This document shows, piece by piece, positions 41,450-41,700 of a stretch of 64,000 bases of DNA (the stretch's first letter is position 1; every line of letters begins with the position of its first letter). A program made the translations under genes and the position numbers. The stretch is from Eledone cirrhosa (Eukaryota), in NCBI GenBank assembly GCA_964016885.1, contig OZ024742.1, positions 27,900,001 through 27,964,000 of the forward strand. The letters run 5' to 3'. The notes beneath the pieces were generated by a model. It was given only the letters and a program-made list of their open reading frames with translations. It was not told the origin of the DNA and ran no database searches.

Positions 41450-41700
41450 TAGTTATGTAATAAGCAGCATGAGACAATTATTCCATTTACCAAAGGTTTC
41501 ACGAAGACAGACGAGCTAGACATAGACGTCTGAAATCGCTCATCAGAATGACATTTTATTTGATGTGGATGTAAGATATGGATTTAAAAAGAAAGGCTAA
41601 AAATAGTAACTGTCTTATGTTGTTTATTACATAATTAAATAGCTCTGTAACTTACACAGAGCACTCTCCTTTCCTTTACCTTTCCTACGGAAACACTTAA
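41450..41700. mobile_element. Small inverted-repeat hammerhead element
   Basis: 31-bp inverted repeats 41450-41480 / 41607-41637 (5 transitions) enclose the hammerhead; about 60-bp extension, then (TA)n. Confidence 0.6.
41483..41551 (-). ncRNA. Type I hammerhead ribozyme, apparently intact
   Basis: Minus strand CAUU-CUGAUGA-GCGA uuu CAGACG[loop]CGUCUG ucu UCGU-GAAA-CC uuu GG-UA|AAUG. Core complete, stems I-III pair, predicted cleavage after GUA (41488/41487). Confidence 0.85.

What the first reader, a model, noticed from the sequence alone, without database searches (positions are those of the whole stretch)
41450..41700. Intact monomer-competent type I hammerhead on the sense strand of the putative host intron
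Minus strand 41551->41483 has every conserved core nucleotide, a 4-5 bp stem I, an extended stem II (GCGA/UCGU plus CAGACG/CGUCUG), a closed stem III (ACC-UUU-GGU) and a GUA site. It has no antisense copy next to it, only 31-bp outer inverted repeats. It lies on the same strand as the Ig exon, so if the gene spans this position the nascent pre-mRNA could self-cleave (inference).
Basis: partly seen in the sequence, partly recalled or inferred. Interest (0 to 1): 0.75.

Follow-up and report, generated by a model that had tools for sequence, protein, structure and literature searches.

The report
Penelope-element hammerhead stub in an intron
A real hammerhead (self-cutting RNA) motif lies on the sense strand of a predicted 46-kb intron of an octopod Ig-domain gene, but it is the leftover end piece of a Penelope-like jumping gene with about 11,000 related motifs in this genome, and it likely cuts too weakly to affect the gene.

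Summary
The motif is real: a type I hammerhead at minus 41551-41483, GUA site 41488/41487 (0.01 expected by chance). A homology gene model puts it on the sense strand of a 46.3-kb intron of a zig-8-like gene, 11.2 kb before the next exon. It is not a host element. It is a 250-bp truncated pseudo-LTR of a Hydra-clade Penelope-like retrotransposon inserted in (TA)n. The genome holds 190 exact full-core copies, 1,038 subfamily motifs and 11,073 family motifs, and ORF-linked parents. The 3-bp/3-nt stem III is the published Hydra-clade design. The inverted repeats are part of a 94-nt inverted end copy. The copy is averagely decayed (7 of 158 changes); stem I has dropped from 7-8 to 5 bp, and the active fold is predicted about 8 kcal/mol above the ensemble. 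The gene carries 16 sense-strand hammerhead motifs, 5 with a stem III of 3 bp or more. Cleavage is untested. The scan reported the same kind of thing before on other DNA. Verdict: ordinary passenger.

The parts
41483..41551 (-). Type I hammerhead motif (stem I 5 bp, core, stem II 4+6 bp with G.U at 10.1-11.1, stem III 3 bp + UUU, GUA site at 41488/41487)
   Evidence: family covariation
41451..41602 (-). Sense arm: 5'-truncated pseudo-LTR of a Hydra-clade Penelope-like element, ending at the short 3' end
41607..41700 (+). Inverted arm: 94-nt copy of the element's 3' end, made of 35 bp that pair with the sense arm plus the ~59-nt tail; it stops before the hammerhead
41701..41716 (.). (TA)n target-site remnant, left
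   Evidence: relatives flanked by (TA)n
41433..41450 (.). TA-rich target-site remnant, right
30096..30306 (-). Host exon: second half of the first Ig domain of a zig-8-like gene (AG acceptor, GTGAGT donor); the upstream exon lies outside the window at C3:27976580-27976711
30307..64000 (-). Window part of the predicted 46.3-kb host intron that contains the motif
5941..5970 (-). Likely micro-exon of the same gene (DNPVREKTKP)
   Evidence: 92% over 12 aa, E 0.05; fits exon order
41715..42628 (+). Unrelated neighbour: 5'-truncated LINE copy (family with endonuclease, RT and PHD finger; longer copy at 6413-9500)

Best explanation
This is a truncated end piece (pseudo-LTR) of a Hydra-clade Penelope-like retrotransposon that sits in a (TA)n tract of a predicted intron, and its hammerhead is likely a decaying passenger that cuts slowly or not at all and does not regulate the host gene. 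Shown: family membership, copy numbers, linkage to RT/GIY-YIG ORFs, two-armed layout, degree of decay. Inferred: the element's endonuclease cut the (TA)n tract; reverse transcription started at the two fixed 3' sites about 59 nt apart and gave one sense and one inverted arm; both aborted early, the inverted arm before it reached the hammerhead. In the parent the motif lies about 200 nt upstream of the ORF start and likely processes partial-tandem transcripts, helped by a second hammerhead (the 9-nt stem III is a near-palindrome) or by the element's protein. In this solo copy there is no nearby same-family partner and no obvious loop-loop contact, and upstream sequence is predicted to pair with the core.
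For: Copies: 190 exact full-core matches, 1,038 subfamily, 11,073 family; reversed-pattern controls 0. Parent: in L068 the hammerhead arm abuts a truncated RT followed by GIY-YIG; 13 of 30 ORF loci hold a pLTR piece within the fetched flank, and in 5 of 30 the sense 3' half plus tail precedes the ORF start. Hydra motifs among 30 decayed ORF loci: CxCX5C 23, DKT 15, RWK 6, YVGMT-type 24 (definition in PMC8557442). The published Hydra table shows the same stem III class: Hydra-1_oBim acca-a-tggt, Penelope-2_HM act-ttt-agt, and G.U at the base of stem II in Penelope-13_HM. Tail on one arm only: 17 sense, 8 inverted, 0 both, 5 neither, of 30. Decay: 7 of 158 differences from the majority of 17 close copies (median 6); 43 of 51 subfamily copies have a stem I of 7 bp or more, this one 5. 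Active fold predicted 2.8 kcal/mol above the ensemble for the core and about 8 in context. Gene-wide 16 sense against 10 antisense motifs, p=0.33. Metazoan PLE hammerheads were inactive as monomers in PMC4209133 and needed protein in PMC11167929.
Against: No cleavage assay exists for this motif. The tested PLE ribozymes have a shorter or absent helix III than this one, and a 3-bp stem III works as a monomer in ASBVd minus. A coral retrozyme monomer cleaved at about 0.8/min. The copy escapes the antisense lock that holds 12 of 26 scored siblings at more than 18 kcal/mol. The UUU loop weakens the dimer (-5.1 against -8.2 kcal/mol for ACU) and leaves the monomer hairpin unchanged. The folding model omits Mg2+ and tertiary contacts, and I ran no known-active control. 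The strand count is small and not independent. Pfam named none of 8 parent ORF pieces, so the clade call rests on motifs and a by-eye match to Hydra-1_Obim. The orthologous site in other octopods could not be checked.
Confidence: 0.85

Rival explanations
1. Same retrotransposon origin, but the solo motif cleaves measurably as a monomer in vitro or slowly in vivo, with no effect on the host mRNA because splicing is finished first or tolerates the cut.
For: Complete core and a 3-bp stem III; ASBVd-minus precedent; no antisense lock. Slow intronic ribozymes left splicing unaffected (Fong 2009 as cited in PMC10919898).
Against: 5-bp stem I, G.U at 10.1-11.1, and a competing hairpin predicted to take up CUGAUG. 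This overlaps the best explanation and differs only in the rate.
Confidence: 0.3
2. Exapted intronic ribozyme: fast co-transcriptional cleavage 11.2 kb before the exon competes with splicing and tunes zig-8-like mRNA output, as reported for the mammalian CPEB3 ribozyme.
For: Sense-strand intronic position; distance similar to CPEB3's 9,931 nt; core not blocked by an antisense copy.
Against: No sign of constraint (7 of 158 changes, one in stem I). It is one of 4 sense motifs in this intron and 16 in the gene, and several of those have longer stems. 9 of 26 sibling copies are predicted to fold better.
Confidence: 0.05
3. Monomer of a tandem non-LTR retrozyme that propagates as circular RNA.
For: Retrozymes carry type I hammerheads and are proposed to derive from PLE pLTRs (bioRxiv 2026.07.22.740005).
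Against: No head-to-tail repeat here. None of the loci inspected showed a tandem array of this unit, and the family continues into a coding PLE.
Confidence: 0.03
4. Chance match to a short motif.
For: No Rfam hit; core MFE z-score -0.54.
Against: 0.01 expected; C-G to U-A covariation at pair 10.2-11.2 between subfamilies (40 of 49 against 19 of 22).
Confidence: 0.01

Closest known systems
Hydra-clade Penelope-like elements and their hammerheads, incl. Hydra-1_Obim from Octopus bimaculoides (Craig et al. 2021, PMC8557442; passages, supplement searches and supplement part 2 of 59 read)
   Same: C-terminal GIY-YIG, RWK, DKT and CxCX5C motifs, (TA)n target, inverted 5'-truncated copy, tail on one end, type I hammerhead with a 3-bp + 3-nt near-palindromic stem III.
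   Different: A different family from Hydra-1_Obim (its exact motifs are not in the supplement); longer, interrupted stem II; tail about 59 nt against the 30-40 bp described.
Minimal hammerheads in pLTRs of metazoan PLEs (Cervera and De la Pena 2014, PMC4209133; parts 1-2 of 4 read)
   Same: Mostly solo motifs from truncated PLEs, long helix II, short helix I, no defined loop 1, thousands per genome.
   Different: This motif has a closed 3-bp helix III and G.U instead of G10.1-C11.1.
Poseidon PAc from Anolis (Frangieh et al. 2024, PMC11167929; parts 1-2 of 4 read)
   Same: Hammerhead at the pLTR-ORF junction; two fixed 3' ends that define the tail; AT-rich targets.
   Different: Other clade; there the ORF starts inside the hammerhead, here about 200 nt downstream. 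PAc's ribozyme needed protein; untested here.
CPEB3 intronic ribozyme (PMC10919898, passages read)
   Same: Sense-strand intron position about 10 kb before an exon.
   Different: CPEB3 is single-copy, conserved and shown to be active (its HDV-like fold is from the listing); this is a decayed repeat copy.

Membership tests
Type I hammerhead ribozyme | Core C3-A9, G12-A14, A15.1-U16.1, H17 | tested here: met
Type I hammerhead ribozyme | Three helices, helix I open | tested here: met
   5, 4+6 and 3 bp; covariation at 10.2-11.2
Type I hammerhead ribozyme | G10.1-C11.1 pair typical of canonical motifs | tested here: not met
   G.U in 42 of 49 subfamily cores, A-U in 7; G.U also in published Penelope-13_HM
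Type I hammerhead ribozyme | Loop 1-loop 2 tertiary contact for fast cleavage at low Mg2+ | tested here: inconclusive
   No conserved helix I bulge seen in the alignment; the sister subfamily has an uninterrupted ~10-bp stem II; by inspection only
Type I hammerhead ribozyme | Rfam hammerhead model match | tested here: not met
Type I hammerhead ribozyme | Site-specific self-cleavage | not testable with these tools
   needs an assay
Hydra-clade PLE pLTR | Linked to RT plus C-terminal GIY-YIG ORF | tested here: met
Hydra-clade PLE pLTR | RWK, DKT, CxCX5C, CxxC and CxH motifs | tested here: met
   6, 15, 23, 19 and 20 of 30 decayed or truncated loci, loose regexes
Hydra-clade PLE pLTR | (TA)n insertion, inverted truncated copy, tail at one end | tested here: met
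Hydra-clade PLE pLTR | Placement in an RT phylogeny with reference Hydra proteins | not tested
   no reference proteins were loaded; compared by eye with Hydra-1_Obim
Non-LTR retrozyme | Head-to-tail tandem units, each with a hammerhead | tested here: not met
Exapted intronic ribozyme (CPEB3-like) | Sense-strand intron location | tested here: met
Exapted intronic ribozyme (CPEB3-like) | Constraint on this copy relative to its family | tested here: not met
   7 of 158 differences, family median 6, one in stem I
Exapted intronic ribozyme (CPEB3-like) | Conserved at the orthologous site in other species | not testable with these tools
   no related genomes held

The most novel reading that the evidence does not exclude
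The UUU subfamily of this Hydra element has traded dimer pairing for monomer cleavage, so solo copies on the sense strand of introns cut nascent RNA unaided, and this copy acts as a CPEB3-like timer on splicing of a zig-8-like Ig gene in an octopod.
Probability: 0.05. Interest if true: 0.6.

Novelty: new member of a known kind. Interest (0 to 1): 0.12.

Why it matters
As found, little: it adds one more octopod family of Hydra-clade Penelope-like elements and confirms that their hammerheads litter introns on both strands. The one open point is biochemical. Hydra-clade hammerheads share a 9-nt stem III that can fold as a monomer hairpin or a dimer duplex, and my searches found no cleavage test of a Hydra-clade or cephalopod hammerhead. 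If they cut as monomers, thousands of intronic copies would be a load on, or a tool for, splicing of long cephalopod genes. Other copies in this gene would be better test cases than this one.

Tried and rejected
Rfam scans: no hammerhead hit. Expression: no RNA holder listed. The three listed runs are contigs of unrecorded kind from one sample; laid on 40800-42000 they showed only family-wide repeat coverage, no piece spanning the element and no end at the cleavage site, which contigs cannot show. They are no evidence either way, and exon coverage was not examined. Pfam on 8 parent ORF pieces gave no relevant family. A search for copies that run on past the tail (30 of 199 inspected) found none continuing into an ORF but exposed the larger ACU-loop sister subfamily; the parent came from extended flanks. 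I first read loop variation (UUU, ACU, AUU) as support for a monomer fold and dropped that: ACU, 76 of the first 100 listed matches by hand count, restores a near-perfect palindrome, as a dimer would favour. The loose 'inverted arm present' flag can be hit by AT-rich flanks, so only the tail and full-antisense counts are used. ADAR footprint: 3 of the 7 changes are T>C in the paired arm, too few and on the wrong strand for sense-RNA editing. [quoted passage not shown] The search for kinetics of G.U at 10.1-11.1 was seen as a listing only. One search listed nothing relevant. Supplements of the bioRxiv preprint were not seen; they may list octopod families.

Full report
Observation. The minus strand at 41551-41483 carries a complete type I hammerhead core, a 5-bp stem I (one G.U), a stem II of 4 bp, a 3x3 loop and 6 bp, a 3-bp stem III with a UUU loop, and GUA with the scissile bond at 41488/41487. 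The pattern occurs once in the window against 0.01 expected. Rfam does not detect it, and the core alone does not fold better than shuffles (z -0.54). Pair 10.1-11.1 is G.U.

Host gene. An Ig exon at minus 30306-30096 has canonical splice sites and is 97-99% identical to octopod zig-8-like proteins. The preceding exon lies at C3:27976580-27976711 with a GT donor in matching phase, and later exons follow in order on the same strand. The motif therefore lies on the sense strand of a 46.3-kb intron, 11.2 kb before the acceptor. This is a homology model; no RNA data were available.

It is a repeat. A search of the own genome gave 3,446 first-look candidates, of which 40 were scored. Exact patterns gave 190 full-core copies, 1,038 motifs of the UUU subfamily and 11,073 of the wider family, with 0 in each reversed control. 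Copies sit in (TA)n and have two fixed 3' ends about 59 nt apart. Among the first 30 of the 190 full-core copies, the tail is on the sense arm in 17, on the inverted arm in 8, on neither in 5 and on both in none; 23 of 30 lack a full antisense hammerhead (two of the 30 are near-duplicates). The window copy is the tail-on-inverted-arm type: 94 nt of antisense 3' end (41700-41607) joined to a 152-nt sense arm (41602-41451).

Parent. In L068 an inverted hammerhead arm abuts a truncated RT that continues into a C-terminal GIY-YIG domain. Of 30 loci found with that ORF, 13 hold a pLTR piece in the fetched flank, and in 5 the sense 3' half of the hammerhead plus tail precedes the ORF start by about 120-200 nt. 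The ORFs carry RWK, DKT, CxCX5C, CxxC and CxH motifs, which define the Hydra clade in Craig et al. 2021 (PMC8557442, passages). The N-terminus resembles Hydra-1_Obim by eye. Pfam named none of 8 pieces and I built no tree. The paper's supplementary table shows that a 3-bp + 3-nt near-palindromic stem III is the common Hydra design, including acca-a-tggt in Hydra-1_oBim and act-ttt-agt in two Hydra magnipapillata families. Stem II covaries between subfamilies (C-G in 40 of 49 cores, U-A in 19 of 22), which points to selection on the fold in the active element lineage, not in this copy.

Can it cut as a monomer? For: a 3-bp stem III suffices in ASBVd minus (PMC6466107, passages); a coral retrozyme monomer cleaved at about 0.8/min (PMC7229834, passages); this copy is free of the antisense lock that puts 12 of 26 scored siblings above 18 kcal/mol (4 of 30 were not scored for lack of a 4-bp stem I). 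Against: the stem III hairpin is predicted at +0.4 kcal/mol while the dimer duplex is -5.1 (UUU) or -8.2 (ACU, the majority loop). The only other family motif on the gene's sense strand is about 219 kb away. The copy differs from the majority of 17 close copies at 7 of 158 sites (median 6), including T>G at 41552; 43 of 51 subfamily copies keep a stem I of 7 bp or more. The active fold is predicted 2.8 kcal/mol above the ensemble for the core (family median 2.45) and 7.9-8.5 in context, where upstream sequence pairs with CUGAUG and the arm junction invades stem I; 9 of 26 siblings score better. These energies omit Mg2+ and tertiary contacts and have no active control, so they rank copies but do not give rates. 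Tested metazoan PLE hammerheads were inactive as monomers (PMC4209133, parts 1-2) or needed the element's protein, with no RNA-seq ends at the site (PMC11167929, parts 1-2); both have weaker helix III than this motif.

Is the position special? No. The same intron holds 4 sense-strand hammerhead motifs. Over the 449-kb predicted coding span my descriptor finds 16 sense and 10 antisense motifs (p=0.33, not independent; reversed control 0), 5 of the sense ones with a stem III of 3 bp or more. The far end of that span rests on a 36-residue exon match and crosses 200 N. In Xenopus 42-44% of retrozyme copies overlap introns, with a significant but partial depletion (bioRxiv 2026.07.22.740005, part 1 and passages). 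Only fast intronic ribozymes disturbed splicing (Fong 2009, seen only as cited in PMC10919898). The distance to the exon is close to that of CPEB3, where the half-life is 2-3 min, so a rate of that order would be needed.

Verdict. A real hammerhead motif, intronic and sense, but a standard end fragment of a Hydra-clade Penelope-like element with average decay. It is most likely an inert or slow passenger (0.85); exaptation as a splicing timer is not excluded (0.05). Earlier scan notes reached the same reading for other loci; they are not independent evidence. New member of a known kind; interest 0.12.

Noticed in passing
window 43968-43914 (-), 37914-37860 (-), 38060-38114 (+), 44379 (+, stem I damaged), 31052-31008 (-), 49717 (+): Other type I hammerhead families, most with 6-nt palindromic stem III, in the same intron; 37914/38060 form a head-to-head pair.
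   Followed up: partly
G000:C3:27726741-27727791: Two-armed array of 310-bp units, each with a hammerhead (3 sense, 2 antisense) in a later intron of the same gene. The sense tandem could form double hammerheads, a better candidate for cutting this pre-mRNA.
   Followed up: no
G000:C3:27576482 (-) / 27581313 (+), 27722767 (-), 27562138 (-): Sense-strand hammerheads in the same gene with stronger stems (stem I 6-10 bp, stem III 3-4 bp) than the reported one.
   Followed up: no
L077-L106: Larger sister subfamily (ACU/AUU loop) with a perfect ~10-bp stem II but a mismatch (C.A, A.A) at 10.1-11.1 in 16 of 22 non-UUU cores.
   Followed up: partly
L076:9100-9400 (+): Another Hydra-like PLE whose 5' region has GAAAC, a long stem III-like hairpin and GUC, but no plain CUGANGA upstream; possibly a variant core.
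   Followed up: no
window 40611-40682 (-): tRNA gene-like sequence, anticodon GUC, 58 bits, 800 nt downstream of the motif; tRNA-derived SINEs at 41431 and 4256.
   Followed up: no
window 6413-9500 (-), 11076-11856 (-), 41715-42628 (+): Young LINE family (90-95% alike) with a PHD finger after the RT domain.
   Followed up: partly
window 41464-41471: Three T>C changes cluster in the paired part of the sense arm; too few to call RNA-editing scars.
   Followed up: partly
window 5941-5970 (-): Likely 30-33-nt micro-exon linking the two Ig domains.
   Followed up: partly
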